The notes under the pieces were generated by a model. That model did not search any database, was not told the origin of the DNA, and worked only from the letters and a program-made list of their open reading frames with translations. A stretch of DNA of 64,000 nt, taken from the NCBI GenBank assembly GCA_036253495.1, contig GCA_036253495.1_4125.1; one strand, written 5' to 3'. Of the stretch, positions 12,065 through 40,595 are shown piece after piece; the first letter of the stretch is position 1, and every line of letters begins with the position of its first letter. The translations under genes were made by a program, and so were the position numbers. Source of the DNA: a phage.

Positions 12065-12074
12065 ATTTCCCTCC

Positions 12075-13205: not shown

Positions 13206-13237
13206 ATTTCCCTCCTTTATTCATTATACTATATTTA

Positions 13238-13272: not shown

Positions 13273-13278
13273 ATTAAT

Positions 13279-14427: not shown

Positions 14428-14475
14428 AATTCCTCCTTTATTCATTATAATATATTTAATCAAAAAAGAAAACCC

Positions 14476-30432: not shown

Positions 30433-30445
30433 TATAAAAAATAGT

Positions 30446-30473
30446 TTGACAATAGATTATAGTACTGTATAAT
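30446..30473 (+). promoter_or_regulatory. early promoter + 5' stem-loop
   Basis: TTGACA-16-TATAAT; hairpin GGGGAGAA/TTCTCCCC. Confidence 0.65.
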
Positions 30474-30524
30474 AAGTTACATCAAGGGGAGAATAGTTCT
30501 CCCCACAAACAGAGAGAAAACAAA

Positions 30525-30737
30525 ATGGCTAATATCCGCACTGTACTGAAAAATGCAAAACAAGTTTTATTTTCTGATCATGAAAATTTCAACAAGGATA
30601 TCACAGGCGTTCGGAATATCAAAGATGTAAAAAATGTTATGGGTATCTATTGCAATATGAAACGTGTTGGCACGTTCGGCGATAAAGTACTATACCAGGC
30701 AGGGGATTACAATTTTACACTGACTATCATTAACTAA
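30525..30737 (+). CDS. hypothetical early protein
   Basis: 70 aa; promoter + hairpin upstream. Confidence 0.65.
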   Translation: MANIRTVLKNAKQVLFSDHENFNKDITGVRNIKDVKNVMGIYCNMKRVGTFGDKVLYQAGDYNFTLTIIN

Positions 30738-30756
30738 AAATATTATCACAGTACTA

Positions 30757-30785
30757 TTGACAACGTTTGATAGTACTGACATAAT
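30757..30785 (+). promoter_or_regulatory. early promoter (duplicated cassette, copy 3)
   Basis: TTGACA-17-CATAAT. Confidence 0.6.
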
Positions 30786-30827
30786 AACTTTTATCAAGAC
30801 AACGCATATTAACTTAAGGAATTAAAA

Positions 30828-31007
30828 ATGGCTATTATCGCAAAAACTGAAATCGTTGGTCTGGATTCTATCATCATGACGTTTGAAGATCAAAAAGGGA
30901 TGTATGTAGTTTCCTATGGTGATTATGTTCGGGAGTATGAAACGGTAGACGAAGCCTTTGAAAGTTACATTCGCCAGGTGAATAAAGCATACGACGACTA
31001 CCGCTAA
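30828..31007 (+). CDS. small hypothetical protein (59 aa, not in ORF track), cassette paralog of 26644-26856
   Basis: MAIIAKTEIVGLDS...; same promoter/leader cassette as 26553-26643. Confidence 0.55.
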   Translation: MAIIAKTEIVGLDSIIMTFEDQKGMYVVSYGDYVREYETVDEAFESYIRQVNKAYDDYR

Positions 31008-31034
31008 AATATATTACCAGTACTATTAAAGATA

Positions 31035-31062
31035 TTGACATAGTTTGATAGTACTGTATAAT
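31035..31062 (+). promoter_or_regulatory. early promoter
   Basis: TTGACA-16-TATAAT. Confidence 0.6.
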
Positions 31063-31106
31063 AAGTTTTATCAACAGTAGTTAACTTAACCTAAGAGAGA
31101 AAGAAA

Positions 31107-31250
31107 ATGATCGCACTGGATTCATTCATCGAAGCAGTACTGGCAAAAACTGGCGAAGATCTGACCGCAGAACAATACGCAATGATCGAACAATGCCAGC
31201 AAGACGGTAAATCGGTGAAAGATACTGTTAAGATTATCCGCAAGATGTAA
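31107..31250 (+). CDS. small hypothetical protein (47 aa, not in ORF track)
   Basis: MIALDSFIEAVLAKTGEDLTAEQYAMIEQCQQDGK...; promoter upstream, terminator downstream. Confidence 0.5.
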   Translation: MIALDSFIEAVLAKTGEDLTAEQYAMIEQCQQDGKSVKDTVKIIRKM

Positions 31251-31255
31251 GATTA

Positions 31256-31288
31256 TAGCCCACTGGTTAACGCTGGTGGGCTTTTTAG
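31256..31288 (+). terminator. rho-independent terminator (contains Chi octamer)
   Basis: AGCCCAC-tggttaacgctg-GTGGGCT + TTTT; includes GCTGGTGG. Confidence 0.65.
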
Positions 31289-31362
31289 TATATACCTATC
31301 CGATAGTACTACAAAATAGATTAGCTCGTTAGAATGCGTTTGAGAGCGTTTAAATAAGTACT

Positions 31363-31390
31363 AAAAAGTATTGACAGTACTGATAGATAG
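31363..31390 (+). promoter_or_regulatory. early promoter + 5' stem-loop
   Basis: TTGACA-16-TATAAT; hairpin GGGGAA-acatc-TTCCCC. Confidence 0.65.
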
Positions 31391-31445
31391 TGTATAATGT
31401 TTTACATGAAGGGGAAACATCTTCCCCTACTAAGAGGAAAACAAA

Positions 31446-31634
31446 ATGGAACAATTATCAAGTATTTTAGTACAAGATGAATACGGCAATCCAGGAAGTG
31501 CTATCATTGTTCGGGGTAATAAGGCAACGTTTGTTATTGCTGGTGGACCTGTACAGCGTAGCATTAAAAACAATGCCGTTACTATTAATAATGTACGCTA
31601 TCGTTTAGATAAAGAATTAATTCATAAACTTTAA
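31446..31634 (+). CDS. hypothetical early protein
   Basis: 62 aa; promoter + hairpin upstream. Confidence 0.65.
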   Translation: MEQLSSILVQDEYGNPGSAIIVRGNKATFVIAGGPVQRSIKNNAVTINNVRYRLDKELIHKL

Positions 31635-31642
31635 AAAAGTAC

Positions 31643-31670
31643 TGGACAATAGATTATAGTACTGTATAAT
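31643..31670 (+). promoter_or_regulatory. early promoter + 5' stem-loop
   Basis: TGGACA-16-TATAAT; hairpin GGGGAGAA/TTCTCCCC. Confidence 0.6.
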
Positions 31671-31720
31671 AAGTTACATGAAGGGGAGAAATGATTCTCC
31701 CCAGTACTGAGGAAAGAAAA

Positions 31721-31933
31721 ATGCAAGGTCAACTAATCGTTCGTAAATGGTCTGATACTAACGCTAAACCGTGGGATGTACAATACATCGCCCCCAATGG
31801 TGAATCCAGATATCAACCAGGTGTAACGCATAGTACTGAGCAATATGCCGCCGCACACCGTGAACGCCTGTTACAATCCATGCAGCAAGGCTTCGGTGAA
31901 AAATTCATCCAAGATCATTGGCTGAAAGATTAA
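31721..31933 (+). CDS. hypothetical early protein
   Basis: 70 aa from MQGQLIVRKW; promoter + hairpin; track extension rejected. Confidence 0.65.
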   Translation: MQGQLIVRKWSDTNAKPWDVQYIAPNGESRYQPGVTHSTEQYAAAHRERLLQSMQQGFGEKFIQDHWLKD

Positions 31934-31941
31934 AAAAGTAT

Positions 31942-31969
31942 TTGACAAAGTATCACAGTACTGTATAAT
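31942..31969 (+). promoter_or_regulatory. early promoter + 5' stem-loop
   Basis: TTGACA-16-TATAAT; hairpin GGGGAGAA/TTTCTCCCC. Confidence 0.65.
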
Positions 31970-32020
31970 TAATTACATCAAGGGGAGAAGTTTTCTCCCC
32001 ACCATATAAGGGTAACAGTT

Positions 32021-32110
32021 ATGCACATGAATCCGTTCATAGTAGTAATTGCAATCATTATGGCAGTACAGGCCGTATTAGTTTACTTAAGCAAAGCAGG
32101 AGTTATCTAA
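32021..32110 (+). CDS. small hydrophobic membrane peptide (29 aa)
   Basis: MHMNPFIVVIAIIMAVQAVLVYLSKAGVI; promoter + hairpin upstream. Confidence 0.4.
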   Translation: MHMNPFIVVIAIIMAVQAVLVYLSKAGVI

Positions 32111-32111
32111 A

Positions 32112-32285
32112 ATGATCCATGTAGAATTATCAGTACTGAAAGATTTGTTTTATCGGATGGGTACTACTGGCGAATATCCGAAGGGTGATACCGCAAAACT
32201 TTTTGTATCACTCGACTTATGGCAACGCGAACAATTAGTAACGTCCTGGCGTAAAGGTAAAGCCGACAAGGGGGCCGTAGCATGA
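32112..32285 (+). CDS. small hypothetical protein (57 aa, not in ORF track)
   Basis: MIHVELSVLKDLFYRMGTTGEYPKGD...; preferred over antisense track ORF 32150-32332. Confidence 0.45.
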   Translation: MIHVELSVLKDLFYRMGTTGEYPKGDTAKLFVSLDLWQREQLVTSWRKGKADKGAVA

Positions 32286-32431
32286 AAGAATACATTTTCG
32301 AAGTTACGTTTTTGGGTAAAGGTATGCATCAACTGATACGGTCCAGCGGATACAGTGTTAACCAGGCGTGGAATAACTTAAAACAAATGTACCCGAACGC
32401 TATCACATATCGCAACCCTCGCGAGGCATAA
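32282..32431 (+). CDS. small hypothetical protein (49 aa, not in ORF track)
   Basis: MKEYIFEVTFLGKGMHQLIRSSGYS...; ATGA overlap with upstream ORF. Confidence 0.45.
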   Translation: MKEYIFEVTFLGKGMHQLIRSSGYSVNQAWNNLKQMYPNAITYRNPREA

Positions 32432-32446
32432 AATAAATTGAAAAAA

Positions 32447-32479
32447 GGGATTGACTCCGGTCAGTCCCTTTGCTATTAT
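32447..32479 (+). promoter_or_regulatory. composite terminator-hairpin/promoter element (copy 2)
   Basis: AAAAAAGGGATTGACTCCGGTCAGTCCCTTTGCTATTAT. Confidence 0.55.
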
Positions 32480-32578
32480 ATACGCATAGAAACAAATTAG
32501 CCCACCGGGTGCATAAATGTATCTATTGTTTGCTGGTGGAGGTATTATCTAGTACTGAAAACTATTTTTAAAAAGTAC

Positions 32579-32606
32579 TTGCATTGTACTTAGAATCAAG
32601 TATAAT
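32579..32606 (+). promoter_or_regulatory. early promoter (upstream of structured leader)
   Basis: TTGCAT-16-TATAAT GTTTTACATCAG. Confidence 0.6.
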
Positions 32607-32612
32607 GTTTTA

Positions 32613-32694
32613 CATCAGGACGGGGAATGAAACAAGTAACCCCGTTAAGTAGTCCAGGAGTAAGACATAAGAAAACCTCCCCTGATAAAATAGT
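32613..32694 (+). other. conserved structured 5' leader RNA between tandem promoters (copy 2)
   Basis: ACGGGGAAtgaaacaagtaaCCCCGT then CCAGGAG...CCTCCCCTG. Confidence 0.5.
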
Positions 32695-32722
32695 TTGACA
32701 ATAGAAAGTAAACGAGTATAAT
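32695..32722 (+). promoter_or_regulatory. second (proximal) promoter
   Basis: TTGACA-16-TATAAT before ATG 32755. Confidence 0.55.
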
Positions 32723-32754
32723 ACTTACATCAACCACTGATAAGGAAACATAAA

Positions 32755-33030
32755 ATGCGGATTCTACTGACAGCTAACGAAATCGAGCAAGTACTGACTA
32801 CTAACCTGGAACAATGGAAACGTGATGCAGATATCCAGGCGGTACAATGGCTTAACGATAAGTTAACGCCAGATGACTTAAGCAAGATTGTTGACCCTCA
32901 ATTCTATGAAGATATTCACGACACGGCTTTAAGCGTCGAGGATGTACTTGATAAGCACTACATTGATATTGATTTGCAGGTTTACGGTCGTAAAAACTTT
33001 ATCACTATTCACGACATTTACAATACTTAA
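32755..33030 (+). CDS. hypothetical early protein
   Basis: 91 aa; tandem promoters and structured leader upstream. Confidence 0.65.
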   Translation: MRILLTANEIEQVLTTNLEQWKRDADIQAVQWLNDKLTPDDLSKIVDPQFYEDIHDTALSVEDVLDKHYIDIDLQVYGRKNFITIHDIYNT

Positions 33031-33033
33031 GTA

Positions 33034-33061
33034 TTGACAAAGTATCTTAGTACTGTATAAT
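33034..33061 (+). promoter_or_regulatory. early promoter + 5' stem-loop
   Basis: TTGACA-16-TATAAT; hairpin GAGGGGAA/TTCCCCTC. Confidence 0.65.
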
Positions 33062-33115
33062 AGTTTACATCAAGAGGGGAATGGTTCCCCTCCTAACAAA
33101 GAGAGAGAAATAAAA

Positions 33116-33298
33116 ATGGCTAAGTGCACTATCTGTAAGAAAGAAATCGTATTAGTTCCAAGTGCCCGTGAACGTGCCGCTCGGTTCGGTGGCAAAGCGT
33201 CAGACTATACAAAAATGTTTACTGCCCATGCAGATTGCCAGGTAGCAAAACGTTCACAAGAAAGCGTAGAATTAATGCGTAAACTTTCCAAAAAATAA
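33116..33298 (+). CDS. small zinc-ribbon-like protein
   Basis: 60 aa; CTIC...HADC motif; promoter + hairpin upstream. Confidence 0.6.
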   Translation: MAKCTICKKEIVLVPSARERAARFGGKASDYTKMFTAHADCQVAKRSQESVELMRKLSKK

Positions 33299-33301
33299 GT
33301 A

Positions 33302-33329
33302 TTGACAAAGTATCTTAGTACTGTATAAT
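33302..33329 (+). promoter_or_regulatory. early promoter + 5' stem-loop (duplicate of 33034)
   Basis: TTGACA-16-TATAAT; hairpin GAGGGGAA/TTCCCCTC. Confidence 0.65.
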
Positions 33330-33385
33330 AGTTTACATCAAGTGAGGGGAATGGTTCCCCTCCTAACTAAAAGAGAGAAATAAAA

Positions 33386-33709
33386 ATGGCTATGATCCTC
33401 ACCCAGAAAGTAGAACTGAAAATTGTAACATCCTTTGACATTAAAGTTAATCGGTGGACTGATTCACACGGCAATACTTACCACTCTTGCTACGTGTCTG
33501 CGTTAATTGGCGACCGCTGGGAGGATTTAGGACATGAAACCTTTACTTACGGTTACGGCACACAAGGCGAATACACGGGCTTGGAGATCATTAAAGAAAC
33601 GGTTATAGGTTTCAACCCGAAAGAAAAAGTTATTCATCAAATAGAAAAAGAGATCAACAAAGAAATAACAGTTCGCTACAACGATGTAAAACGTAAGAAA
33701 GACATGTAA
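33386..33709 (+). CDS. hypothetical early protein (paralog of 26948-27271)
   Basis: 107 aa; upstream promoter/hairpin nearly identical to that of 33116. Confidence 0.7.
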   Translation: MAMILTQKVELKIVTSFDIKVNRWTDSHGNTYHSCYVSALIGDRWEDLGHETFTYGYGTQGEYTGLEIIKETVIGFNPKEKVIHQIEKEINKEITVRYNDVKRKKDM

Positions 33710-33731
33710 TAGAATCCATTTAAAGTACTAT

Positions 33732-33760
33732 TTGACATTGCCCAGATAGTACTTTATAAT
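33732..33760 (+). promoter_or_regulatory. early promoter
   Basis: TTGACA-17-TATAAT. Confidence 0.6.
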
Positions 33761-33804
33761 AGACTCTAGCTTGTAGTACTAACTTAACTAATAGGATGTA
33801 TACC

Positions 33805-34200
33805 ATGATTACTAAATTCTACGCTACCCGTGAAGCTGCCCGTATTGTTGCACGCGAGGAAGGAGCAGCATTTAAAGACATGGGCACGACCGCACCGAAA
33901 GGCCAACGCTGGGCCGTACAGTTCAAAGAAATCTCTGATATTGTGAATTCACCTGAACCAGTACTAACAGCAGCAGAACAGAAGAAAGCTGATGAACTGT
34001 CAGCAGTACTTAACGCTCAAGATGAATTTATCGCGGGTTCTGATATCAAAGTACAGGTAAATGCTAATGCATGGACTCACGCGGATCACCTGGCTAACCT
34101 GAAGCGTCCAAGTGAACTGGTTCGCAACCAGAAAGAGATCCGACACGACCGTAAGGGTAATCGTGTAACAGTATACAGTAAACGCCGCCAGGTTATCTAA
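33805..34200 (+). CDS. hypothetical early protein (paralog of 21133-21399)
   Basis: 131 aa from MITKFYATREAAR; SD AGGA; terminator downstream. Confidence 0.65.
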   Translation: MITKFYATREAARIVAREEGAAFKDMGTTAPKGQRWAVQFKEISDIVNSPEPVLTAAEQKKADELSAVLNAQDEFIAGSDIKVQVNANAWTHADHLANLKRPSELVRNQKEIRHDRKGNRVTVYSKRRQVI

Positions 34201-34221
34201 TAACTTGCAGTACTAACAACA

Positions 34222-34250
34222 CGGCGGGATCAGTTCCCGCCTTTTTTATA
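34222..34250 (+). terminator. rho-independent terminator
   Basis: GGCGGGA-tcagt-TCCCGCC + TTTTTT. Confidence 0.75.
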
Positions 34251-34262
34251 GGATAAACTAAA

Positions 34263-34517
34263 ATGATTAAGGTACAACTATCTAAAGATAATATCTTGCG
34301 GGTACACTATAAAGCCCCTCAGAGAATCATCACAAAGGCCGTACAGCTTGCTAATGAGTTTATTAATGGTAATCTATTGCCCAGGAAGTTAAGCAACGGC
34401 AAACTGCGTGTAATCGATGTAGACACTAACAACAGGATAGTAATCGAGAATACCGGAAAGATAAACCTCTATGAACACCAACAATATAATAAGAAAATAA
34501 AACTAATATCACGTTGA
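34263..34517 (+). CDS. hypothetical early protein
   Basis: 84 aa; SD AGGA. Confidence 0.6.
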   Translation: MIKVQLSKDNILRVHYKAPQRIITKAVQLANEFINGNLLPRKLSNGKLRVIDVDTNNRIVIENTGKINLYEHQQYNKKIKLISR

Positions 34518-34542
34518 CAGTACTCAATTGTTTTAGTACTAT
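34514..34542 (+). promoter_or_regulatory. early promoter
   Basis: TTGACA-17-TACTAT. Confidence 0.55.
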
Positions 34543-34570
34543 GTATCTATACCAACACGGGAGAAACAAA

Positions 34571-34789
34571 ATGAAATTATCTAAAATCGAAAAGAAAACT
34601 ATTGATGAAGCAGTTAAGCACGGTTATACCTTTCGTAATGATTCACATTTTACCAATTTTCAACAAGGGTATCGTACTATTAAAAAACTAATTGACAAAG
34701 GTTTATTAGTTAAAGTAGATAACGGTAACGGCGTGGAGTATCAGCCAACACAAGACGCATTATCTTTAAAGAAATATGCAATTATCTAA
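34571..34789 (+). CDS. hypothetical early protein
   Basis: 72 aa from MKLSKIEKK; promoter TTGACA/TACTAT; SD GGGAGA; track extension rejected. Confidence 0.6.
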   Translation: MKLSKIEKKTIDEAVKHGYTFRNDSHFTNFQQGYRTIKKLIDKGLLVKVDNGNGVEYQPTQDALSLKKYAII

Positions 34790-34818
34790 TTGACAGTACT
34801 CAAATGTTTTAGTACTAT
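34790..34818 (+). promoter_or_regulatory. early promoter (duplicate of 34514)
   Basis: TTGACA-17-TACTAT. Confidence 0.55.
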
Positions 34819-34854
34819 ATGTACATACCAACACGGAATAACTGGAGAAACAAA

Positions 34855-35082
34855 ATGATTAATATCTTAGAACGCATCAAAGAAACTACTACGCTGGTGG
34901 ATCTACTCAATGTACTGACTTTTAAAGTAACTCGGTTTAGTACTCCTGAATTTATCAACCTCATTGATAGTAAAGGTGAATACCGCATCACTATTGAAAA
35001 TGGTCGTGCTAATGTATTCAGTACTAAATCAGGTAAAACCGCAATTCATTCTGTAATTGCAAATAAAACTGTTGCAATCTAA
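34855..35082 (+). CDS. hypothetical early protein
   Basis: 75 aa from MINILERIK; duplicated promoter as upstream gene. Confidence 0.6.
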   Translation: MINILERIKETTTLVDLLNVLTFKVTRFSTPEFINLIDSKGEYRITIENGRANVFSTKSGKTAIHSVIANKTVAI

Positions 35083-35100
35083 TTAGTACTAACATATAAT
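35072..35100 (+). promoter_or_regulatory. promoter + 5' stem-loop (kinase-like gene)
   Basis: TTGCAA-17-TATAAT; hairpin GCAGGGA/TCCCTGC. Confidence 0.55.
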
Positions 35101-35151
35101 AGTCACATCAAGGCAGGGAATACCTCCCTGCTATCTTAAAGAGTAAATGCA

Positions 35152-35736
35152 ATGCGTAATTATACTAAATTCATCCGGGCACTGGCAGAAATGGAAACTA
35201 ACAAAGAGATCCTTACAGCTTGTCGGTTGGCTGGTCTGGAGATCATCGGGGCCGGATCATCCCGTATCGTATTCGCTTTAAATGATCGGTTAGTGATTAA
35301 GGTCGCTAATTGTGACGCTGGCGTAGAACAAAATGAAACAGAATGTAAGGTATGGAATTTTTTAGATTATGACCGCCCTCACCTTAAACAGTACTTTGCT
35401 AAGGTGCATATGCATTTAAGCGATCCTGATAATATGTTTATTGTTATGGATCGTTTGAGTACTGCAAGCAAAGGCAGTGTAAAGCACGTTAACGCTTGCA
35501 ATGAATTAAAGTACAATGTCAAACGTAACACTATTGAACGCCAACACCATTTCGCTGATGCACTACAACACGTTGATGATACCTTATCAACACTAACGAT
35601 AAGAGATATCAGAAAGCAGAACATAGGCCAAGATCGCAATGGCCTGATTAAAGTACTTGATTACGGTTTAACCCGCAATATCTGGAATCAGTACTATAAA
35701 CAACGCGACGTAAAAGCCGTAACTATAACACGATAA
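35152..35736 (+). CDS. protein kinase-like protein (candidate small Ser/Thr or atypical kinase)
   Basis: 194 aa; Gly-loop IIGAGSSRIVF, Lys motif LVIKV, catalytic-loop-like IRDIRKQNIG, DFG-like VLDYG. Confidence 0.5.
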   Translation: MRNYTKFIRALAEMETNKEILTACRLAGLEIIGAGSSRIVFALNDRLVIKVANCDAGVEQNETECKVWNFLDYDRPHLKQYFAKVHMHLSDPDNMFIVMDRLSTASKGSVKHVNACNELKYNVKRNTIERQHHFADALQHVDDTLSTLTIRDIRKQNIGQDRNGLIKVLDYGLTRNIWNQYYKQRDVKAVTITR

Positions 35737-35750
35737 AAAAGATTAAAAAA

Positions 35751-35783
35751 GGGATTGACTCCAGTCAGTCCCTTTGCTATTAT
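35751..35783 (+). promoter_or_regulatory. composite terminator-hairpin/promoter element (copy 3)
   Basis: AAAAAAGGGATTGACTCCAGTCAGTCCCTTTGCTATTAT. Confidence 0.55.
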
Positions 35784-35878
35784 ATAGTCATTGAGAGATA
35801 ACTCACTGACCCATAGGGTGCATAAGTGTATCTATAATATAAGTATTGTCAGTACTGAAAACTATTTTAAAAAAGTAC

Positions 35879-35906
35879 TTGCATTGTACTTAGAATCAAG
35901 TATAAT
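35879..35906 (+). promoter_or_regulatory. early promoter + 5' stem-loop
   Basis: TTGCAT-16-TATAAT; hairpin GGGGGAAAC/GTTCTCCC. Confidence 0.65.
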
Positions 35907-35958
35907 GTTTTATATCGAGAGGGGGAAACGGTTCTCCCTGGCAATAAGGAATAAAATC

Positions 35959-36180
35959 ATGACTACAATGACTTGCATTTACGCTTCCAATCTTCTGAAT
36001 GATGCGGCCTTTAATGTTGATTCAGAATATCAATGTTATCGGGATGAAAATAAAAAAGTTTTTGTAGTTGATAATAATGGTTTCCATATTGAATTGCAAT
36101 CCGGCTTCACTGGCGTTGATGGTAAATCAGTATGGGGCGTACAGGATGATAAAGGTACATATCATTTTAAACGTAATTAA
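35959..36180 (+). CDS. hypothetical early protein
   Basis: 73 aa from MTTMTCIY; promoter + hairpin; track extension from 35791 rejected. Confidence 0.6.
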   Translation: MTTMTCIYASNLLNDAAFNVDSEYQCYRDENKKVFVVDNNGFHIELQSGFTGVDGKSVWGVQDDKGTYHFKRN

Positions 36181-36183
36181 GTA

Positions 36184-36211
36184 TTGACAAAGTATCTTAG
36201 TACTGTATAAT
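36184..36211 (+). promoter_or_regulatory. early promoter + 5' stem-loop
   Basis: TTGACA-16-TATAAT; hairpin GGGGAGAA/TTCTCCCC. Confidence 0.65.
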
Positions 36212-36263
36212 AGTTTACATCAAGGGGAGAATAGTTCTCCCCGATACTAAAAGGAATAAAATC

Positions 36264-36671
36264 ATGACTACTACTAATCAAGCTCGGTCCATCGCCAACG
36301 ATAAAAATCATGCTGCAATGGTCGCTGGTTACATTGAAGCTATGCAATTCAGTACTGTACACAATGAGAACGGCGAATACCTGGAAGATTATGAATTATC
36401 AGAGCAAGCCCATCAAGCGGCAGTGATTGCATGTTCACGTTTCCTTGCTGTACATGGTGAAGATATGGAAACAGTACAAAAACACCATAATCCTGATTAT
36501 ACTTATAATCATGCAGGTCATGATCTCTTTCTTACTCGCGAAGGTCACGGTACTGGCTTTTGGGATCGTGATATCGGTCACTATGACGATGTATTCACTA
36601 AGTACTGCGAAGAAATCAACGTTTGCGATCCCTATGTAGGCGATGATAATCTAATCTATATGGGCGAATAA
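36264..36671 (+). CDS. hypothetical protein with His/Asp-rich motif
   Basis: 135 aa; HAGHDLFLTREGHGTGFWDRDIGHYDD suggests metal-binding/hydrolase-like site (speculative). Confidence 0.65.
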   Translation: MTTTNQARSIANDKNHAAMVAGYIEAMQFSTVHNENGEYLEDYELSEQAHQAAVIACSRFLAVHGEDMETVQKHHNPDYTYNHAGHDLFLTREGHGTGFWDRDIGHYDDVFTKYCEEINVCDPYVGDDNLIYMGE

Positions 36672-36677
36672 AAGTAC

Positions 36678-36705
36678 TTGACAAAGTATATCAGTACTGT
36701 ATAAT
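36678..36705 (+). promoter_or_regulatory. early promoter + 5' stem-loop
   Basis: TTGACA-16-TATAAT; hairpin GGGGAGAA/TTCTCCCC. Confidence 0.65.
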
Positions 36706-36758
36706 AGTTTACATCAAGGGGAGAATAGTTCTCCCCACCAATAAAAGGAAACAACATT

Positions 36759-37031
36759 ATGTCAAGCTACTCCGCTACTATGATCATTAAAGATATGAAC
36801 GGTAATCCTACTTCTGCTGGTGGATCATTTGGAAACATTAACTTAGATGGTCGGTTATCAATGGAATCAGCCATCAATGCAGCGAAAGAAGTTTTTAAGA
36901 ATGAATGTACTGTAAGCAAGCTAGATTATATGGGCTTCGCTATCGAGAAAACTAAACGTTTTGTGGACTACAAAAATCCACTAATGATTGATACTAACCT
37001 GAAAGCTAACGAAGTGGAATACTTATTATGA
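36759..37031 (+). CDS. hypothetical early protein
   Basis: 90 aa; promoter + hairpin upstream. Confidence 0.65.
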   Translation: MSSYSATMIIKDMNGNPTSAGGSFGNINLDGRLSMESAINAAKEVFKNECTVSKLDYMGFAIEKTKRFVDYKNPLMIDTNLKANEVEYLL

Positions 37032-37219
37032 CAGTTGAAGAAGTTAAAAAAGTACTGGCAGTACTACGCTATCATAATCATTGCAAGGTGAAGAATGATC
37101 CTGATTATGTTGATTCATCCCTGGAGGAAGACACCTTAAACGCGATAAGCCATATGCAAACATTAGCAAAGCGTATGACCGAAAAGAATAGGCCGGACTA
37201 TATCGGAAATAAAATTTAA
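37028..37219 (+). CDS. hypothetical early protein
   Basis: 63 aa; ATGA overlap with upstream ORF. Confidence 0.55.
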   Translation: MTVEEVKKVLAVLRYHNHCKVKNDPDYVDSSLEEDTLNAISHMQTLAKRMTEKNRPDYIGNKI

Positions 37220-37226
37220 AAAGTAC

Positions 37227-37254
37227 TTGCATTGTAGTTAGATTAAAGTATAAT
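37227..37254 (+). promoter_or_regulatory. early promoter + 5' stem-loop
   Basis: TTGCAT-16-TATAAT; hairpin GGGGGAAA/TTTCCCCT. Confidence 0.65.
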
Positions 37255-37306
37255 GTTTTATATCGAGAGGGGGAAATGGTTTCCCCTCAAGTCCAGGAGA
37301 TACACC

Positions 37307-37570
37307 ATGAACACTATCGAAATCACTATTAATGCTCACGTATACGACAACGTAGTACTGCAAACTACTATGACCGCTAACGATACCAGTACTTTGCGGA
37401 ATACTGTTATAAGTGCTGTATGTGCCGCTATCGGTGATGTATCCCTGGAAAATGCAGAACACATCAACAACGGTTTCACTATGTGCAAACGTGATAACGC
37501 AAAACATATCATCGTAGAAGGTTACGGCGGTGTAGAATATAACCTTTATATGAAAAAAGTACTTGCATAG
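37307..37570 (+). CDS. hypothetical early protein
   Basis: 87 aa from MNTIEITINAH; 3' end overlaps next promoter. Confidence 0.6.
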   Translation: MNTIEITINAHVYDNVVLQTTMTANDTSTLRNTVISAVCAAIGDVSLENAEHINNGFTMCKRDNAKHIIVEGYGGVEYNLYMKKVLA

Positions 37571-37590
37571 TAACTAAAACAAAGTATAAT
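37563..37590 (+). promoter_or_regulatory. early promoter + 5' stem-loop
   Basis: TTGCAT-16-TATAAT; hairpin GGGGGAG-atatc-CTCCCCC. Confidence 0.65.
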
Positions 37591-37638
37591 GTTTTGCATA
37601 GGGGGAGATATCCTCCCCCACTAATAAGGAGTACTACG

Positions 37639-37863
37639 ATGGCTAATCATGATGAACTGATTCGGGAAGTAGCTAACCTGGCGGCAGAAAAGAAATCATT
37701 TGATTCTATCTATAACACCGCTCACCGTGATTCAGTACTGGCATGTAATCAGGATCAAAAAGATGAACTGATCGCAACCTATCATGAAGCATGGAAGTAT
37801 TACCGTCAATGGGAGAAAGAAGAAAAAGCATCAACCATAAGAGGATTAAATAATCTAGTATAA
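37639..37863 (+). CDS. hypothetical early protein
   Basis: 74 aa from MANHDELIREV; SD AAGGAG. Confidence 0.6.
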   Translation: MANHDELIREVANLAAEKKSFDSIYNTAHRDSVLACNQDQKDELIATYHEAWKYYRQWEKEEKASTIRGLNNLV

Positions 37864-37869
37864 CAATAA

Positions 37870-37900
37870 AAGGGGATGATAATATCCCCTTAATAATTTC
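37870..37900 (+). terminator. possible terminator (weak U-tract)
   Basis: GGGGAT-gataat-ATCCCC + TTAATAATTT. Confidence 0.4.
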
Positions 37901-37915
37901 TATAATAGGTTAACA

Positions 37916-38182
37916 ATGAAAAAGAAAACAACATATCGCTATAATAAAAATTATCAATCCGTTGTATTAGATCACTCTATGCTCCCGCTCGTTGTCCCTG
38001 CCGTTGGTGTAGTCTATCAATCCATATACTGGTCAAGGAAACAACAAAAGTACTTAAAAGGCCCACTAGCACGTTATGAGGGTAACGGTGTATGGTCCGA
38101 TCCGTTACATCCAATCACTACGCGTTATATTGAATATTTTCCTTATTGTGACTACATTGAAATACATCCTAAATTTAATTGA
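37916..38182 (+). CDS. hypothetical early protein (paralog of 38263-38520)
   Basis: 88 aa; shares NG.W.DP..PI and YIE motifs with next gene. Confidence 0.6.
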   Translation: MKKKTTYRYNKNYQSVVLDHSMLPLVVPAVGVVYQSIYWSRKQQKYLKGPLARYEGNGVWSDPLHPITTRYIEYFPYCDYIEIHPKFN

Positions 38183-38187
38183 TAGTA

Positions 38188-38215
38188 TTGACAGTACTAA
38201 CTGATAGTGTATAAT
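38188..38215 (+). promoter_or_regulatory. early promoter + 5' stem-loop
   Basis: TTGACA-16-TATAAT; hairpin GGGGGAATACTCCCCC. Confidence 0.65.
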
Positions 38216-38262
38216 GTTTTGCATAGGGGGAATACTCCCCCAATATTAAAAGGGGAATCATC

Positions 38263-38520
38263 ATGGAACAATTCACACAATATCGGGTAAATCCTCAAGC
38301 TATGGCCTACGTAGAAGACCATAAAACGTTACCAGTACTGCAACCAGTTAAAGGCCGTATCTATCGTGGCCTTGCATGGAATACGGCCCAGGATGGATAT
38401 AAAACCGTTGCCGTGGGGATGTATTGCGGGAATGGTGAATGGTTTGATCCTAACAATCCGATTGCACTTGACAGTACTGAAAAAATGAAATGGGCCGACT
38501 ATATCGAGGATATCTCATAA
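38263..38520 (+). CDS. hypothetical early protein (paralog of 37916-38182)
   Basis: 85 aa; promoter + hairpin GGGGGAATACTCCCCC upstream. Confidence 0.65.
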   Translation: MEQFTQYRVNPQAMAYVEDHKTLPVLQPVKGRIYRGLAWNTAQDGYKTVAVGMYCGNGEWFDPNNPIALDSTEKMKWADYIEDIS

Positions 38521-38525
38521 AACTA

Positions 38526-38554
38526 TTTGACAGTACTATCATATAGTGTATAAT
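38526..38554 (+). promoter_or_regulatory. early promoter + 5' stem-loop
   Basis: TTGACA-17-TATAAT; hairpin GCGGGGGAA/TTCTCCCGC. Confidence 0.65.
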
Positions 38555-38609
38555 GTTTTACATAGAGCGGGGGAATAGTTCTCCCGCCAATAGTTTGGAG
38601 TAAAACATT

Positions 38610-38810
38610 ATGTCAATCGCTATCGCCCTGGTTGAAGTACTGAAAGAAGCTAAAGCTAACCTGATCGACGTAAAGATCCAGGAACTACAATCCGGCTTAA
38701 TCGGCTGTACTTGTACCGCTGGTGGGGCGACAGATTATCGTGAATTCGAATCACTCGAATCTATGGTTCGGTATCTTACAATGATCGTGGAAGATTGGAA
38801 GATCATCTAA
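38610..38810 (+). CDS. hypothetical early protein
   Basis: 66 aa; promoter + hairpin upstream. Confidence 0.6.
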   Translation: MSIAIALVEVLKEAKANLIDVKIQELQSGLIGCTCTAGGATDYREFESLESMVRYLTMIVEDWKII

Positions 38811-38828
38811 CAAAAAAGAATAAAAAAA

Positions 38829-38861
38829 GGGATTGACTCCGGTCAGTCCCTTTGCTATTAT
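38829..38861 (+). promoter_or_regulatory. composite terminator-hairpin/promoter element (copy 4)
   Basis: AAAAAAAGGGATTGACTCCGGTCAGTCCCTTTGCTATTAT. Confidence 0.55.
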
Positions 38862-38974
38862 ATACGCATAGACAAAAACTAGCCCACAGGGTGCATAGGT
38901 GTATCTAAAATATATAGTTAATAACGGTGAGTAACTATCTGCTGGTGGAGTGAAAACTATTAATAAAAAACTAT

Positions 38975-39002
38975 TGACAAAGTATAGCAGTACTGCAATA
39001 AT
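38975..39002 (+). promoter_or_regulatory. promoter
   Basis: TTGACA-16-AATAAT. Confidence 0.5.
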
Positions 39003-39055
39003 GTATCTCGTAGGGCGGCAATGGTGCGACGGTCCACAAAGTTAGGAGATTCAAA

Positions 39056-39388
39056 ATGAGTACTTCAATCGCTATCGTAAACGCTTTCATCCGTACCAAT
39101 GTTTCATCTGTATTCATTGACGGGCTGGATCGGGAAGTAGAATACTCAATCATTATCGCACAAACTGCAAACGGTGCTCGGTATATCCTCAATGATAGTG
39201 AAGCAAATCACTACTACTACACTAAAGCTACTGGCTTTAAACGCATCGATGCGGACGTAGTATACGCTAAGATGAATAAGCTGGTAGACAAGATTAACGC
39301 TAAAGGTACTATCGATTTACAGTACTGGACCGAAACCGATCCAGAATATGGATCACATCGCTACCTGAATCCAGGTATTAAAATGTAA
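39056..39388 (+). CDS. hypothetical early protein
   Basis: 110 aa; SD AGGAGA; promoter TTGACA upstream. Confidence 0.65.
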   Translation: MSTSIAIVNAFIRTNVSSVFIDGLDREVEYSIIIAQTANGARYILNDSEANHYYYTKATGFKRIDADVVYAKMNKLVDKINAKGTIDLQYWTETDPEYGSHRYLNPGIKM

Positions 39389-39395
39389 AAAGTAC

Positions 39396-39423
39396 TTGCA
39401 TAGTACTTAGTAAAGTGTATAAT
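39396..39423 (+). promoter_or_regulatory. early promoter + 5' stem-loop
   Basis: TTGCAT-16-TATAAT; hairpin GAGGGGGAAA/GGTTCTCCCTC. Confidence 0.65.
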
Positions 39424-39477
39424 GTTTTACATAGAGAGGGGGAAATGGTTCTCCCTCCTAAATTAAGGAGTTTTATC

Positions 39478-39879
39478 ATGACCTTCTCAATCACTTCTTA
39501 CGCTGACGTTTTAGTACTGGCTCGGACTTTTGGTAAAGATGCACTGGAGTACGCTGTAAGTAATGGTACTATCCAACCGGAGCAGTGCCGCATCATTGGA
39601 AACTGCAAACGTTGGGCGGTATCCAATACTATTGCACTGGAAAACTTCAACGATGGCAACAATGAATATTCTGTTGATGTAGTATTCGAAGCCGTTGATC
39701 TCGGCGGTATCTATAACACTAACCTGAATGATGTGCGTATCGTTCGCACGGGGTTCGGTGCTTATGATGTATCTATTCGTGAAGCTATGAACACCGGATA
39801 CATTAGCAAGGACTTACTTGCTCACATCATGCAGCTGTGGACGGAACGTAACGAAGCACGCACTATCTTAGGACTGTAA
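39478..39879 (+). CDS. hypothetical early protein
   Basis: 133 aa from MTFSITSYADV; promoter + hairpin; track extension rejected. Confidence 0.65.
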   Translation: MTFSITSYADVLVLARTFGKDALEYAVSNGTIQPEQCRIIGNCKRWAVSNTIALENFNDGNNEYSVDVVFEAVDLGGIYNTNLNDVRIVRTGFGAYDVSIREAMNTGYISKDLLAHIMQLWTERNEARTILGL

Positions 39880-40397: not shown

Positions 40398-40595
40398 ATG
40401 CGTATTTTAACACAAGAAGAGCATCACGAAAGACTTATCAATAACATGGCTATGATAATGTATAAGTCTCATAAACGTGGTAATGCCTATAAACGTGAAT
40501 TAGTTATGGAACTATTCTTAGGAACTAACTTACAAAATGAATATGTTAAACTATATGTAAAAGAGTTATGTTTAGAGATAAATGGTAAACTATGA
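40398..40595 (+). CDS. small protein, family B (LGTNYQ-motif)
   Basis: first array member; promoter TTGACT/TATTAT and SD AAGGGAG upstream; FLGTNLQNEYV. Confidence 0.65.
   Translation: MRILTQEEHHERLINNMAMIMYKSHKRGNAYKRELVMELFLGTNLQNEYVKLYVKELCLEINGKL

What the first reader, a model, noticed from the sequence alone, without database searches (positions are those of the whole stretch)
35152..35736. Compact protein-kinase-like early protein
The 194-aa product carries, in canonical order, a Gly-rich loop (IIGAGSSRIVF), a beta3 lysine motif (LVIKV), a catalytic-loop-like IRDIRKQNIG (Asp...Asn) and a DFG-like VLDYG. It is much shorter than T7 gp0.7, so it may be a minimal protein kinase or a small-molecule kinase of the same fold. 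Phage kinases are used for host takeover (phosphorylating RNAP, RNase E, translation factors) or to counter defence.
Basis: inference. Interest (0 to 1): 0.6.

Follow-up and report, generated by a model that had tools for sequence, protein, structure and literature searches.

The report
Ultra-compact kinase in jumbo phage
This 194-residue early gene of a ~350 kb E. coli jumbo phage encodes a stripped-down but apparently active kinase that stops about 24 residues after its DFG-like motif; it belongs to a large, uncharacterised phage family separate from the well-studied T7 kinase, and its substrate is unknown.

Summary
ORF 35152-35736 (+) encodes a 194-aa basic protein with a Gly-loop, beta3 Lys, alphaC Glu, catalytic Asp/Asn and a DYG motif in kinase order. 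Most are invariant in relatives down to ~20% identity, and the gene is under purifying selection (dN/dS 0.08). Pfam Pkinase is sub-threshold. However, a family profile hits only protein kinases in the PDB (E=1.8e-5), and a confident AlphaFold model (pLDDT 94.7) matches only kinase-like folds.

The domain ends 24 residues after the DYG Asp (family median 27), with no activation segment or alphaF-alphaI. Relatives with 2-4 complete tandem copies show the ~190-aa unit is autonomous.

The gene has its own copy of the sigma70 promoter/5'-UTR-hairpin cassette repeated across the 30-39 kb region, which supports early expression.

It belongs to phrog_4301 ("unknown function"), not the T7 gp0.7 family. 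Related phages carry a separate T7K-like gene elsewhere. Some GenBank records and one paper already call it a kinase of unknown function, and I found no experimental work.

Best reading: an unregulated early phosphotransferase, most likely a broad-specificity protein kinase for host takeover or anti-defence. An RNA or small-molecule substrate is not excluded. I rate it a new variant of a known kind, of moderate interest.

The parts
35072..35100 (+). Sigma70-type promoter of the kinase gene: TTGCAA (-35, 35072-35077), 17-nt spacer containing AGTACTA, TATAAT (-10, 35095-35100). It is a degenerate copy of the repeated early-promoter cassette.
   Evidence: Promoter scan gives 10/12 matches. The cassette family TTGACA..AGTACTG-TATAAT-AGTTTACATCAAG-hairpin is repeated 6-10 times in 30-39.5 kb. 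There are 16 perfect-consensus promoters in the window against 0.2 expected.
35113..35131 (+). 5'-UTR stem-loop GCAGGGA-atacc-TCCCTGC (7-bp stem), at the same position as the G/C-rich hairpins of the other cassettes. Its role (mRNA stability or translation control) is inferred.
   Evidence: Read directly from the sequence. Homologous hairpins occur in cassette families D1 and D10.
35138..35143 (+). Shine-Dalgarno-like AAAGAG, 8 nt upstream of the ATG.
   Evidence: Read from the sequence.
35152..35736 (+). CDS of the 194-aa compact kinase-like protein (22.5 kDa, pI 9.2), including the stop codon.
   Evidence: phrog_4301, E=2.3e-41. dN/dS 0.04-0.08.
35161..35229 (+). Two family-specific N-terminal helices (residues 4-12 and 17-26) that precede the kinase N-lobe.
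   Evidence: AF2 secondary structure. N17 and C24 are conserved in the close clade.
35242..35274 (+). Gly-rich loop IIGAGSSRIVF (residues 31-41). The pattern is G33-x-G35-S-S-R38, with an invariant Arg replacing the third Gly of the canonical GxGxxG.
   Evidence: R38 is present in 55 of 55 members and in every tandem copy.
35290..35304 (+). Beta3 strand LVIKV with the invariant ATP-anchoring Lys K50.
   Evidence: K50 is present in 55 of 55 members. It aligns to the beta3 Lys of PLK4 and MKK7.
35320..35343 (+). Start of alphaC carrying the family signature G57-x-x-Q60-N61-x-x-E64. E64 is the alphaC Glu.
   Evidence: G57, Q60 and E64 are invariant and N61 is present in 52 of 55. E64 aligns with the alphaC Glu of PLK4.
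35599..35628 (+). Catalytic loop IRDIRKQNIG, with D152 as catalytic Asp, N157 and G159. The His-Arg of the canonical HRD motif is absent.
   Evidence: D152 in 54 of 55, G159 in 54 of 55, N157 in 29 of 55. It aligns to HRDxKxxN of MKK4 and MKK7.
35653..35667 (+). Beta8 plus the DFG-equivalent VLDYG, with D170 as the Mg-binding Asp.
   Evidence: D170 and G172 are invariant and Y/F171 is present in 52 of 55.
35674..35733 (+). Single terminal helix (residues 175-182, ..IWNQYY..) followed by a short basic tail, then the end of the protein. There is no activation segment, APE motif or alphaF-alphaI.
   Evidence: AF2 secondary structure. The Pfam Pkinase match stops at profile position 152 of 263. 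The family median is 27 residues after the DxG Asp. The tail is net positive in 45 of 55 members.
35748..35783 (+). Downstream hairpin AAAGGGATTGACTCCAGTCAGTCCCTTT, a terminator-like structure that contains the -35 box (TTGACT) of the next promoter, followed by the -10 TATTAT. It marks the 3' boundary of the kinase transcription unit.
   Evidence: Terminator and promoter scan. Repeat family D9 has 3 copies in the window. The same module lies upstream of the RaK2 and Munch orthologues.

Best explanation
The gene encodes a catalytically competent, ultra-minimal member of the protein-kinase-like superfamily.

Expression (inferred from the promoter cassette): host sigma70 RNA polymerase transcribes it early, from its own cassette.

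Fold (predicted with high confidence): the 22.5-kDa basic protein forms a two-lobed kinase core. Two family-specific N-terminal helices lead into beta1-beta5 and alphaC, a hinge, alphaD, alphaE, the catalytic loop, beta7-beta8, the DYG motif and one last short helix.

Catalysis (inferred from homology): ATP would be held by the G33-x-G35 loop, by K50 paired with E64, and by Mg2+ on D170 and N157. D152 would act as the catalytic base. The family-specific invariant residues R38 (tip of the Gly-loop) and Q60/N61 (start of alphaC) probably contact the gamma-phosphate or the substrate.

Regulation and specificity (inferred): there is no activation loop, no HRD arginine and no alphaF-alphaI or P+1 platform. 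The enzyme should therefore be constitutively active, with an open and poorly selective active site.

Function (by analogy only): most likely it phosphorylates many host proteins on Ser/Thr (possibly also Tyr) in the first minutes of infection, for host takeover or to disarm defence systems. That is what the equally truncated T7 kinase does. It would work alongside the separate T7K-like kinase that related phages carry.
For: Catalytic residues:
- The constellation is invariant or nearly so across 55 members and in every copy of the tandem-domain relatives.
- The gene is under strong purifying selection, dN/dS 0.04-0.08.

Kinase homology and fold:
- The family profile hits only protein kinases in the PDB, in register (E=1.8e-5).
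- The beta8-DFG stretch 'IKVLDYGL' matches the 'IKLCDFGIS' type of Hanks kinases.
- Sequence searches find no APH, choline-kinase or RIO family.

Precedent for a truncated protein kinase:
- T7K is an experimentally proven hyper-promiscuous protein kinase with an anti-defence role (PMC13645617).
- The 224-aa jumbo-phage T7K homologue ends 20 residues after its DFG-equivalent Asp.
- Profile-profile comparison with T7K is in register over 138 columns (E=1.4e-4, probability 53%).

Distribution:
- The wider family appears phage-borne in the contexts examined: 58 phage records, almost all jumbo phages, and four distant relatives on phage-like contigs or fused to phage domains.
- P0117 fuses two copies to a PhageMin_Tail domain. 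If that protein is ejected with the DNA, this suggests action inside the host at the start of infection.

Early expression:
- The gene has its own sigma70 cassette and sits in a region with 16 perfect-consensus promoters against 0.2 expected.
- Promoter-like sites also precede the RaK2, Munch and XbC2 orthologues.
Against: - There is no experimental evidence for any member. No activity, substrate or expression timing has been measured, and literature searches found none.
- The entire peptide-binding part of the C-lobe is missing.
- The Lys of the Ser/Thr-kinase 'D-x-K-x-x-N' motif is not conserved, and N157 varies in the wider family.
- ArkI shows that a ~216-aa 'hypothetical Ser/Thr kinase' lacking subdomain VIII can be a tRNA kinase (PMC9095486).
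- The protein is basic (pI 9.2), and one relative is fused to 2H-phosphoesterase and CCA/poly(A)-polymerase modules.
- Related phages already carry a T7K-like kinase, so a second promiscuous protein kinase would be partly redundant.
- I could not inspect the model's coordinates, so the active-site geometry is unchecked.
Confidence: 0.5

Rival explanations
1. It is an RNA or tRNA (or other nucleic-acid) kinase, working like archaeal ArkI. A minimal kinase core would use a basic surface and its C-terminal helix and tail to bind RNA, and would phosphorylate a ribose hydroxyl. The purpose could be to modify or protect phage or host tRNAs, or to take part in RNA repair during the conflict with the host.
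For: - The window protein has pI 9.16 and a terminal 'YYKQR'. 40 of 55 family members have pI above 8, and the tail is net positive in 45 of 55.
- Relative P0112 fuses the domain to 2H-phosphoesterase and PolyA_pol/tRNA-nucleotidyltransferase modules.
- The Yersinia phage orthologue lies among tRNA genes.
Against: - The ArkI match is no better than matches to dozens of protein kinases.
- In the tail, K183 is present in only 17 of 55 members, and some members end right after the [YH]-Y motif.
- Only one RNA-enzyme fusion was seen. It also contains a GNAT module, so it may simply be a mixed multi-enzyme protein.
- A basic tail would equally suit a nucleic-acid-tethered protein kinase such as T7K.
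- Homology to ArkI could not be tested directly, because no ArkI sequence was available.
Confidence: 0.2
2. It is a small-molecule kinase of the APH, choline-kinase or MTR-kinase type. It would phosphorylate a metabolite, an antibiotic-like compound or a nucleotide-derived immune signal, for example to inactivate a host defence messenger.
For: - The absence of any peptide-binding platform would suit a small substrate.
- HRD is replaced by a bare D-x-x-x-x-N, as I recall is typical of APH-type enzymes (the APH comparison rests on my own knowledge).
Against: - Sequence profiles find only Hanks-type protein kinases and never APH or choline-kinase families.
- The helical C-terminal subdomain that forms the substrate pocket in APH-type enzymes is also missing, since the protein ends 24 residues after the DYG Asp.
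- The 'IKVLDYGL' stretch is a protein-kinase-type beta8-DFG motif.
Confidence: 0.12
3. It works mainly as an ATPase, a nucleotide-dependent switch or a scaffold, as the minimal kinases Bud32 and RIO do. The kinase fold would be used to bind and regulate a partner, not to phosphorylate many substrates.
For: - The tandem arrays of 2-4 copies in relatives suggest the units work together.
Against: - There is no sequence match to RIO, Bud32 or Kdo families.
- No conserved partner gene travels with the kinase across relatives.
- Every tandem copy keeps the full catalytic set, including the catalytic Asp, whereas duplicated kinase domains often degenerate.
Confidence: 0.1
4. The kinase resemblance is due to chance, or the ORF is not a real gene.
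For: The Pfam Pkinase match on the single sequence is below the gathering threshold (18.9 vs 31.7 bits, E=1e-3). The first AF2 model, made with a shallow alignment, was poor (pLDDT 47).
Against: - Orthologues occur in 58 phage records and 2,063 cluster representatives.
- dN/dS is 0.08.
- The motif residues are invariant.
- Only kinases appear among the PDB sequence and fold hits.
- The second AF2 model has pLDDT 94.7.
Confidence: 0.02

Closest known systems
T7 gp0.7 protein kinase (T7K) family, including its jumbo-phage homologues (phrog_2828, phrog_15752, PF27024)
   Same: Both are phage-encoded early proteins with a kinase core that stops about 20-25 residues after the DFG-equivalent Asp, with no activation segment or alphaF-alphaI. 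Profile-profile alignment is in register from the Gly-loop to the DFG-equivalent (E=1.4e-4). Annotated podophage protein kinases appear among the viral fold hits. Related phages carry both genes.
   Different: It falls in a different PHROG (4301 vs 2828/15752). None of this ORF's homologues carries PF27024, whereas all 24 T7K-like proteins do. It has DYG where T7K has DPV. It has the G-x-x-QN-x-x-E alphaC signature and a Gly-loop Arg that T7K lacks. It lacks the shut-off/DNA-binding C-terminal domain. hhalign probability is only 53%. The two genes sit at separate loci: 15.8 vs 316.6 kb in phage E9.1, and 20 vs 66 kb in Sharanji.
Hanks-type (eukaryotic-like) Ser/Thr protein kinases, Pfam PF00069, for example MKK4/7, PLK4 and PknB
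   Different: The Pfam score is below the gathering threshold. It lacks subdomains VIII-XI: the Pfam match stops at profile position 152 of 263 with only 13 residues of the protein left. There is no HRD His-Arg. The third Gly of the Gly-loop is an invariant Arg. The Lys of D-x-K-x-x-N is not conserved.
ArkI (AQ578 / COG2112) archaeal tRNA 2'-kinase
   Different: ArkI keeps further C-lobe helices (subdomains IX and XI) that this protein lacks. There is no evidence of specific homology. The tail motif is only partly conserved. ArkI is archaeal or bacterial and cellular, whereas this protein is phage-encoded.
YrbL (PF10707), a ~210-aa kinase-like protein of enterobacteria with unknown function
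   Same: It is of similar size and has the same unusual Gly-loop pattern G-x-G-x-x-R-x-x-[FY], followed by I-K-I. One distant family member (P0031) has a sub-threshold PF10707 hit.
   Different: hhalign is not significant (E=0.19). The window protein has no PF10707 hit. YrbL reads 'CDNIGE' where this protein has DYG.
Bud32 and RIO minimal kinases
   Same: They are compact kinases without an activation loop. Rio2 is among the fold hits.
   Different: There is no sequence-family match. As I recall, these keep several helices after the DFG. They are universal cellular proteins with dedicated partners (KEOPS, the pre-40S ribosome).

Membership tests
Protein-kinase-like superfamily (fold level) | Two-lobed fold: a five-stranded N-lobe sheet with alphaC, a hinge, alphaD/alphaE, a catalytic loop, and beta7-beta8 followed by DFG | tested here: met
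Protein-kinase-like superfamily (fold level) | Catalytic constellation of beta3 Lys, alphaC Glu, catalytic Asp, and the Mg-binding Asn and Asp | tested here: met
   K50, E64 and D170 are invariant and D152 is present in 54 of 55. N157 is present in the window clade but only in 29 of 55 across the wider family.
Hanks-type protein kinase (Pfam PF00069 Pkinase) | Score at or above the Pfam gathering threshold | tested here: not met
   18.9 bits against a cut-off of 31.7, E=1e-3. Only 5 of 55 family members hit at E<0.01.
Hanks-type protein kinase (Pfam PF00069 Pkinase) | Subdomains VIII-XI: activation segment, APE, alphaF, alphaG-alphaI | tested here: not met
   The match ends at profile position 152 of 263. 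The protein ends 24 residues after D170, and the family median is 27.
Hanks-type protein kinase (Pfam PF00069 Pkinase) | HRD motif and the Lys of D-x-K-x-x-N | tested here: not met
   The residue before D152 is variable (G, A, Q, N...). Position +2 is variable. Position +3 is K or R in only 28 of 55.
Hanks-type protein kinase (Pfam PF00069 Pkinase) | Gly-loop GxGxxG and a [IV]K[LV]xDFG-type beta8-DFG | tested here: inconclusive
   The Gly-loop is GxGSSR, with the third Gly replaced by an invariant Arg. The beta8-DFG 'IKVLDYGL' is canonical.
T7 gp0.7 kinase family (phrog_2828, phrog_15752, PF27024) | Match to the family's profile models | tested here: not met
   The window protein hits phrog_4301 and not 2828 or 15752. 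Precomputed Pfam shows PF27024 on all 24 T7K-like proteins and on none of this ORF's 13 homologues. The local Pfam copy lacks PF27024.
T7 gp0.7 kinase family (phrog_2828, phrog_15752, PF27024) | Conserved DP(V) motif in place of DFG | tested here: not met
   The window protein has D170-Y-G. The T7K family has T-D-P invariant or nearly so (PMC13645617).
T7 gp0.7 kinase family (phrog_2828, phrog_15752, PF27024) | Detectable specific homology by profile-profile comparison | tested here: inconclusive
   hhalign of A2 against A3 gives probability 52.6%, E=1.4e-4, with 138 columns in register. Comparison with the single T7 sequence gives E=0.065.
T7 gp0.7 kinase family (phrog_2828, phrog_15752, PF27024) | Protein Ser/Thr/Tyr kinase activity with broad specificity | not testable with these tools
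   This needs in vitro kinase assays or phosphoproteomics.
PHROG 4301 (unknown function) | Profile match | tested here: met
   E=2.3e-41, 142.8 bits, residues 3-187.
YrbL-PhoP_reg (PF10707) | Profile match or significant alignment to E. coli YrbL | tested here: not met
   No PF10707 hit at E<=10. hhalign against YrbL gives E=0.19. Only the Gly-loop pattern GxGxxRxx[FY] is shared.
ArkI / AQ578 tRNA kinase | Specific structural or sequence similarity and a conserved C-terminal YKR motif | tested here: inconclusive
ArkI / AQ578 tRNA kinase | tRNA 2'-O-phosphorylation activity | not testable with these tools
   This needs biochemistry or RNA mass spectrometry.
Aminoglycoside/choline-kinase type small-molecule kinases (APH) | Pfam APH-type profile match and a helical C-terminal substrate-binding subdomain | tested here: not met
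RIO / Bud32 / Kdo minimal kinases | Profile match to RIO1, Kdo or Bud32 models | tested here: not met
Known anti-phage defence kinases (PADLOC) | Significant match to a defence-system model | tested here: not met
   There are only weak hits to the PD-T4-6 kinase models (best E=3.7e-4, 18 bits), restricted to the catalytic core.

The most novel reading that the evidence does not exclude
This ORF represents a very large, phage-specific and experimentally untouched family of about 190-residue kinases, roughly 2,000 clusters at 50% identity. Members occur alone, as 2-4 tandem copies, or embedded in giant tail-associated and multi-enzyme proteins. They would be among the smallest self-sufficient kinase domains known, since everything after the DFG motif has been lost. 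The family has its own active-site signature, GSSR...K...G-x-x-QN-x-x-E...D...G...DYG. It could be either a second, independent lineage of hyper-promiscuous anti-defence protein kinases or, more surprisingly, phage-encoded kinases that act on RNA or tRNA instead of protein.
Probability: 0.3. Interest if true: 0.75.

Novelty: new variant of a known kind. Interest (0 to 1): 0.55.

Why it matters
The T7 kinase was recently shown to disarm bacterial defences by mass phosphorylation (PMC13645617). That makes minimal phage kinases a live topic, and that paper leaves the jumbo-phage kinases open.

This ORF shows that Asteriusvirus and RaK2-like jumbo phages carry a second, unrelated compact kinase. 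That kinase belongs to a much larger phage-borne family that curated databases label 'unknown function'.

If the protein is active, it would set a lower bound on what a kinase domain needs (about 165 core residues, nothing after the DFG). It would also be a tractable 22-kDa model for studying substrate promiscuity, and a candidate anti-defence or host-takeover factor in phages being considered for therapy. If its substrate is RNA or a small molecule, it would be a new type of phage-host interaction.

The gene is already flagged as a 'putative protein kinase' in some records, so the fold assignment itself is not new.

Tried and rejected
- AF2 with the 12-sequence alignment gave a useless model (pLDDT 47). 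The 55-sequence alignment was needed.
- I looked for a second kinase in the window. The A2 profile and a T7 gp0.7 phmmer scan of all ORFs found none. The 224-aa ORF at 22147-22821 has the same length as the Sharanji T7K-like protein but is unrelated (phrog_5162).
- Single-sequence hhalign against T7 gp0.7, the Sharanji T7K-like protein and E. coli YrbL were all non-significant.
- NCBIfam gave nothing useful. PADLOC gave only weak hits to the catalytic core of kinase models.
- I looked for a conserved functional neighbour in RaK2, Munch, XbC2 and fHe-Yen9-04. Only small hypothetical genes of the same syntenic block are shared, and none is informative.
- The supplementary table of T7K homologues from the Nature paper is not held. 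I therefore could not check which Munch or G17 accessions that paper used. I inferred that it refers to the other gene from PHROG, Pfam and locus data.
- The local Pfam copy does not contain PF27024, so the family name is unknown.
- The search for related loci with A2 failed because no stretch was conserved enough. With A1 it found no relatives in GTDB representative genomes and one IMG/VR contig. The search patterns were clade-specific, so this says little about the wider family.
- The fEgEco12 and phAPEC6 papers say nothing about this gene.
- I considered testing for Ser/Thr/Tyr depletion in the early proteins, as seen in T7-like phages. I did not run it, because related phages also carry a T7K-like kinase and the result could not be attributed to this gene.
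Full report
**Observation.** The ORF at 35152..35736 (+) is present as described: ATG start, 194 aa. The four quoted motifs are in frame and in kinase order: IIGAGSSRIVF (residues 31-41), LVIKV (47-51, K50), IRDIRKQNIG (150-159, D152...N157) and VLDYG (168-172, D170). The window comes from an Asteriusvirus-like jumbo coliphage of the PBECO4/121Q group, with 90-94% nucleotide identity to about 350-kb Escherichia phages.

**Is it more than chance?** On the single sequence, Pfam Pkinase is below threshold (E=1e-3, 18.9 bits against a gathering score of 31.7). The match covers only profile positions 25-152 of 263. PHROGs places the protein firmly in phrog_4301, which is annotated 'unknown function' (E=2.3e-41).
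- A word-indexed search found 13 homologues, all 191-212 aa.
- An exhaustive profile search found 2,063 cluster representatives at E<=1e-3 and 248 at E<=1e-10, mostly 180-260 aa.
- In a 55-sequence alignment reaching about 20% identity, R38, K50, G57, Q60, E64, D170 and G172 are invariant. S36, S37, A52, N61, D152 and G159 are conserved in at least 90%.
- Profiles of the family hit only protein kinases among 177,635 PDB sequences (best MKK4, E=1.8e-5). The alignments are in register: K50 falls on the beta3 Lys, E64 on the alphaC Glu, D152/N157 on the catalytic loop and D170 on the DFG Asp.
- dN/dS against the fEgEco12 and Sharanji orthologues is 0.08.

**Structure.** With the 12-sequence alignment AlphaFold2 failed (pLDDT 47). 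With the 55-sequence alignment it gave a confident model (pLDDT 94.7, pTM 0.90).
- The order of elements is: two N-terminal helices, beta1-beta3, alphaC (55-70), beta5 (96-100), alphaD (108-120), alphaE (130-145), the catalytic loop, beta7-beta8, DYG, one helix (175-182), and then the end of the protein.
- Foldseek against the PDB returns only kinase-like folds: MEK1, OSR1, APH(2''), Lpg2603, MTR kinase, Rio2 and SAICAR synthetase. E-values are about 1e-4 and TM-scores are low, 0.35-0.46.
- So the fold is a kinase fold, but a reduced and divergent one.

**The unusual feature.** The protein stops 24 residues after the DYG aspartate. Across the 55 members the median is 27 residues (range 5-66), and some members end 12-13 residues after that Asp, right after a conserved [YH]-Y motif. 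The Pfam alignment leaves 111 profile positions unmatched with only 13 residues of protein remaining. These positions cover the activation segment, APE and alphaF-alphaI.
- The HRD His-Arg is absent, which fits the loss of alphaF and the activation loop.
- The third Gly of the Gly-loop is an invariant Arg.
- alphaC starts with an invariant G-x-x-Q-N-x-x-E.
- Metagenomic relatives contain 2, 3 or 4 complete tandem copies of the unit, each matching profile positions of about 5-180. Every copy keeps the invariant set. This shows the ~190-aa unit is an autonomous and probably active domain.
- Position 157, the canonical metal-binding Asn, is N in the window clade but varies in the wider family.

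**Expression context.** The window has 16 perfect TTGACA-N16-18-TATAAT promoters against 0.2 expected. Most are on the + strand between 30 and 39 kb. They belong to repeated cassettes: promoter with AGTACTG-TATAAT, then 'AGTTTACATCAAG', then a G/C-rich hairpin, then the RBS and ATG.
- The kinase gene has its own slightly degenerate copy: TTGCAA at 35072, TATAAT ending at 35100, a hairpin at 35113-35131, and AAAGAG 8 nt before the ATG.
- Downstream, a hairpin containing the -35 box of the next promoter closes the unit (35748-35783).
- Sigma70-like promoters also precede the RaK2, Munch and XbC2 orthologues.
- Early expression by host RNA polymerase is therefore a well-supported inference, but it has not been measured.

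**Distribution and prior knowledge.** tblastn finds the gene in 58 phage records, almost all jumbo phages of about 310-386 kb infecting Escherichia, Salmonella, Klebsiella, Erwinia, Xanthomonas and Yersinia.
- A few records already label it 'putative protein kinase', 'protein kinase' or 'serine/threonine-protein kinase PRP4/PknA'. Most say 'hypothetical protein'.
- UniProt labels the PBECO4 fragment 'Protein kinase domain-containing protein'.
- The Sharanji orthologue is WNN14351.1. The Sharanji paper mentions it as 'another protein kinase... which function is unknown' (PMC11895373).
- I found no experimental work on it.

**Relation to the T7 kinase.** Bartolec et al. (PMC13645617) showed that T7K is a hyper-promiscuous Ser/Thr/Tyr kinase that disarms defence systems. 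They noted diverged homologues in jumbo phages (Munch, G17) whose function 'remains to be elucidated'.
- That homologue is most likely a different gene. In Sharanji it is gp144 (WNN14432.1, 224 aa), which matches phrog_15752 at E=1e-97 and T7 gp0.7 by BLASTP at E=4e-8, and reads 'TDPLS'. It lies about 46 kb from the orthologue of this ORF.
- In phage E9.1 the two genes are at 316.6 kb and 15.8 kb.
- I could not check the paper's accession list for Munch or G17.
- The T7K-like gene is not in this window.
- All 24 T7K-like proteins carry PF27024, and none of this ORF's homologues does.
- Profile-profile comparison of the two families is borderline: probability 53%, E=1.4e-4, in register over 138 columns. 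That is no stronger than the link to canonical kinases.
- The T7K family shares the truncated architecture: the 224-aa jumbo-phage homologue ends 20 residues after its DFG-equivalent Asp. So a kinase core of this extent can be a real protein kinase, and the missing substrate-binding lobe plausibly explains T7K's promiscuity.

**Wider family architecture.** In every context examined, distant members sit in phage-like surroundings.
- P0021 (three tandem units) lies on 149-185 kb contigs among small Pfam-less genes, next to a calcineurin-like metallophosphatase.
- P0117 (3,248 aa) combines a PhageMin_Tail domain with two kinase units. It may therefore be a tail-associated protein that could be ejected into the host.
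- P0112 (2,130 aa) combines kinase units with GNAT, 2H-phosphoesterase and CCA/poly(A)-polymerase modules. It sits in a contig with DNA polymerase B, a GIY-YIG endonuclease and a gp25-like baseplate gene.
- These fusions fit a role in the phage-host conflict at the start of infection.

**Mechanism.**
- Shown or strongly supported: a real, conserved gene; a kinase-like fold; an intact catalytic constellation; the absence of regulatory and substrate-binding elements; its own sigma70 promoter cassette.
- Inferred: constitutive ATP-dependent phosphotransfer with an open and poorly selective active site; early expression; host proteins as substrates; a takeover or anti-defence role.

The main rival is an RNA or tRNA substrate. 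ArkI was annotated as a hypothetical Ser/Thr kinase, lacks subdomain VIII, has a basic surface and a C-terminal YKR motif, and is linked to a tRNA nucleotidyltransferase (PMC9095486). The window protein has pI 9.16 and a terminal 'YYKQR', and family tails are net positive in 45 of 55 members. However, the Lys is poorly conserved, and the ArkI fold match is no better than those to many protein kinases. Small-molecule kinase and ATPase/switch roles are less likely, because sequence searches detect no APH or RIO family, the protein is too short to hold an APH-type C-terminal subdomain, and no partner gene is conserved.

**Verdict.** The fold assignment is already in some public annotations, so it is not new. 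What is new is that this is a family separate from T7K, very large, ultra-minimal, with its own signature and modular architectures, and entirely uncharacterised. I rate it a new variant of a known kind, with interest 0.55.

Noticed in passing
window 30400-39500, + strand (e.g. 33024-33110, 33292-33378, 36174-36260, 36668-36754): There is a dense array of near-identical early-gene cassettes: TTGACA-N16-(AGTACTG)TATAAT, then AGTTTACATCAAG, then a G/C-rich hairpin (GGGGAGAAtagtTCTCCCC), then the RBS and ATG. The window has 16 perfect-consensus sigma70 promoters against 0.2 expected. The conserved 5'-UTR hairpin right after the predicted transcription start may stabilise the mRNAs or regulate translation.
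   Followed up: partly
window 32430-32525, 35734-35829, 38812-38907: A second repeated module, AAAAAAGGGATTGACTCCrGTCAGTCCCTTTGCTATTATATA. It is a terminator-like hairpin whose 5' arm and loop contain a -35 box, followed by a -10 box. About 30 nt later comes a conserved element, CCCAyAGGGTGCATAArTGTATCTATAAT. The same hairpin-plus-promoter module lies upstream of the RaK2 and Munch orthologues, so it is conserved across genera. It could be an overlapping terminator and promoter switch.
   Followed up: partly
window 32551-32627, 35851-35927, 37199-37275, 37535-37611, 39368-39444: A third promoter-like module, AAAAAGTACTTGCAT..N..AGTATAATGTTTTAyATCGAGAGGGGGAA, occurs in 5 copies. Its translation explains the spurious repeated 'MFYIERGK' ORF starts at about 35900 and at 37253, which are probably untranslated leaders.
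   Followed up: no
window 40587-40980: A 197-nt tandem duplication with two copies at 87% identity.
   Followed up: no
window 4562-14463, - strand: A run of nine similarly sized ORFs (369-472 aa) lies head to tail on the minus strand. It corresponds in position and orientation to a Sharanji block of ~1.1-1.2 kb genes, one of which is annotated as an RCC1-repeat protein. It is probably a paralogous gene family.
   Followed up: no
proteins P0021, P0023, P0027, P0028, P0030-P0033, P0036, P0043 (metagenomic relatives): These 'poly-kinases' are single polypeptides with 2-4 complete tandem copies of the ~190-aa kinase unit, and every copy keeps the catalytic and signature residues. P0021 (locus L010, 1051-3132) overlaps at its 3' end with a convergent calcineurin-like metallophosphatase gene (3118-3972). 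This could be a kinase/phosphatase pair.
   Followed up: partly
proteins P0117 (3,248 aa) and P0112 (2,130 aa; locus L012, 8001-14393): The kinase unit is embedded in giant phage proteins. P0117 has a PhageMin_Tail domain followed by two kinase units. P0112 has kinase units plus GNAT, 2H-phosphoesterase and CCA/poly(A)-polymerase modules. They look like multi-enzyme 'polyvalent' proteins, possibly delivered with the virion.
   Followed up: partly
Sharanji OR545507.1 66182-66856 (locus L005, 21183-21857, - strand); not in this window: Related Asteriusviruses carry a second compact kinase of the T7 gp0.7 family (224 aa, PF27024, phrog_15752). It ends 20 residues after its DFG-equivalent Asp. It is found at >=60% identity in about 25 phage records, whereas this ORF's orthologue is found at >=60% identity in 36. 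Some of these phages therefore seem to have only one of the two kinases.
   Followed up: partly
Yersinia phage fHe-Yen9-04, locus L009, 3962-4471: The most distant phage orthologue (27% identity, 169 aa) lies in a tRNA-rich region, with tRNA-Leu, Glu and three Ser genes within 3 kb. This may be coincidental, but it bears on the RNA-kinase rival.
   Followed up: no
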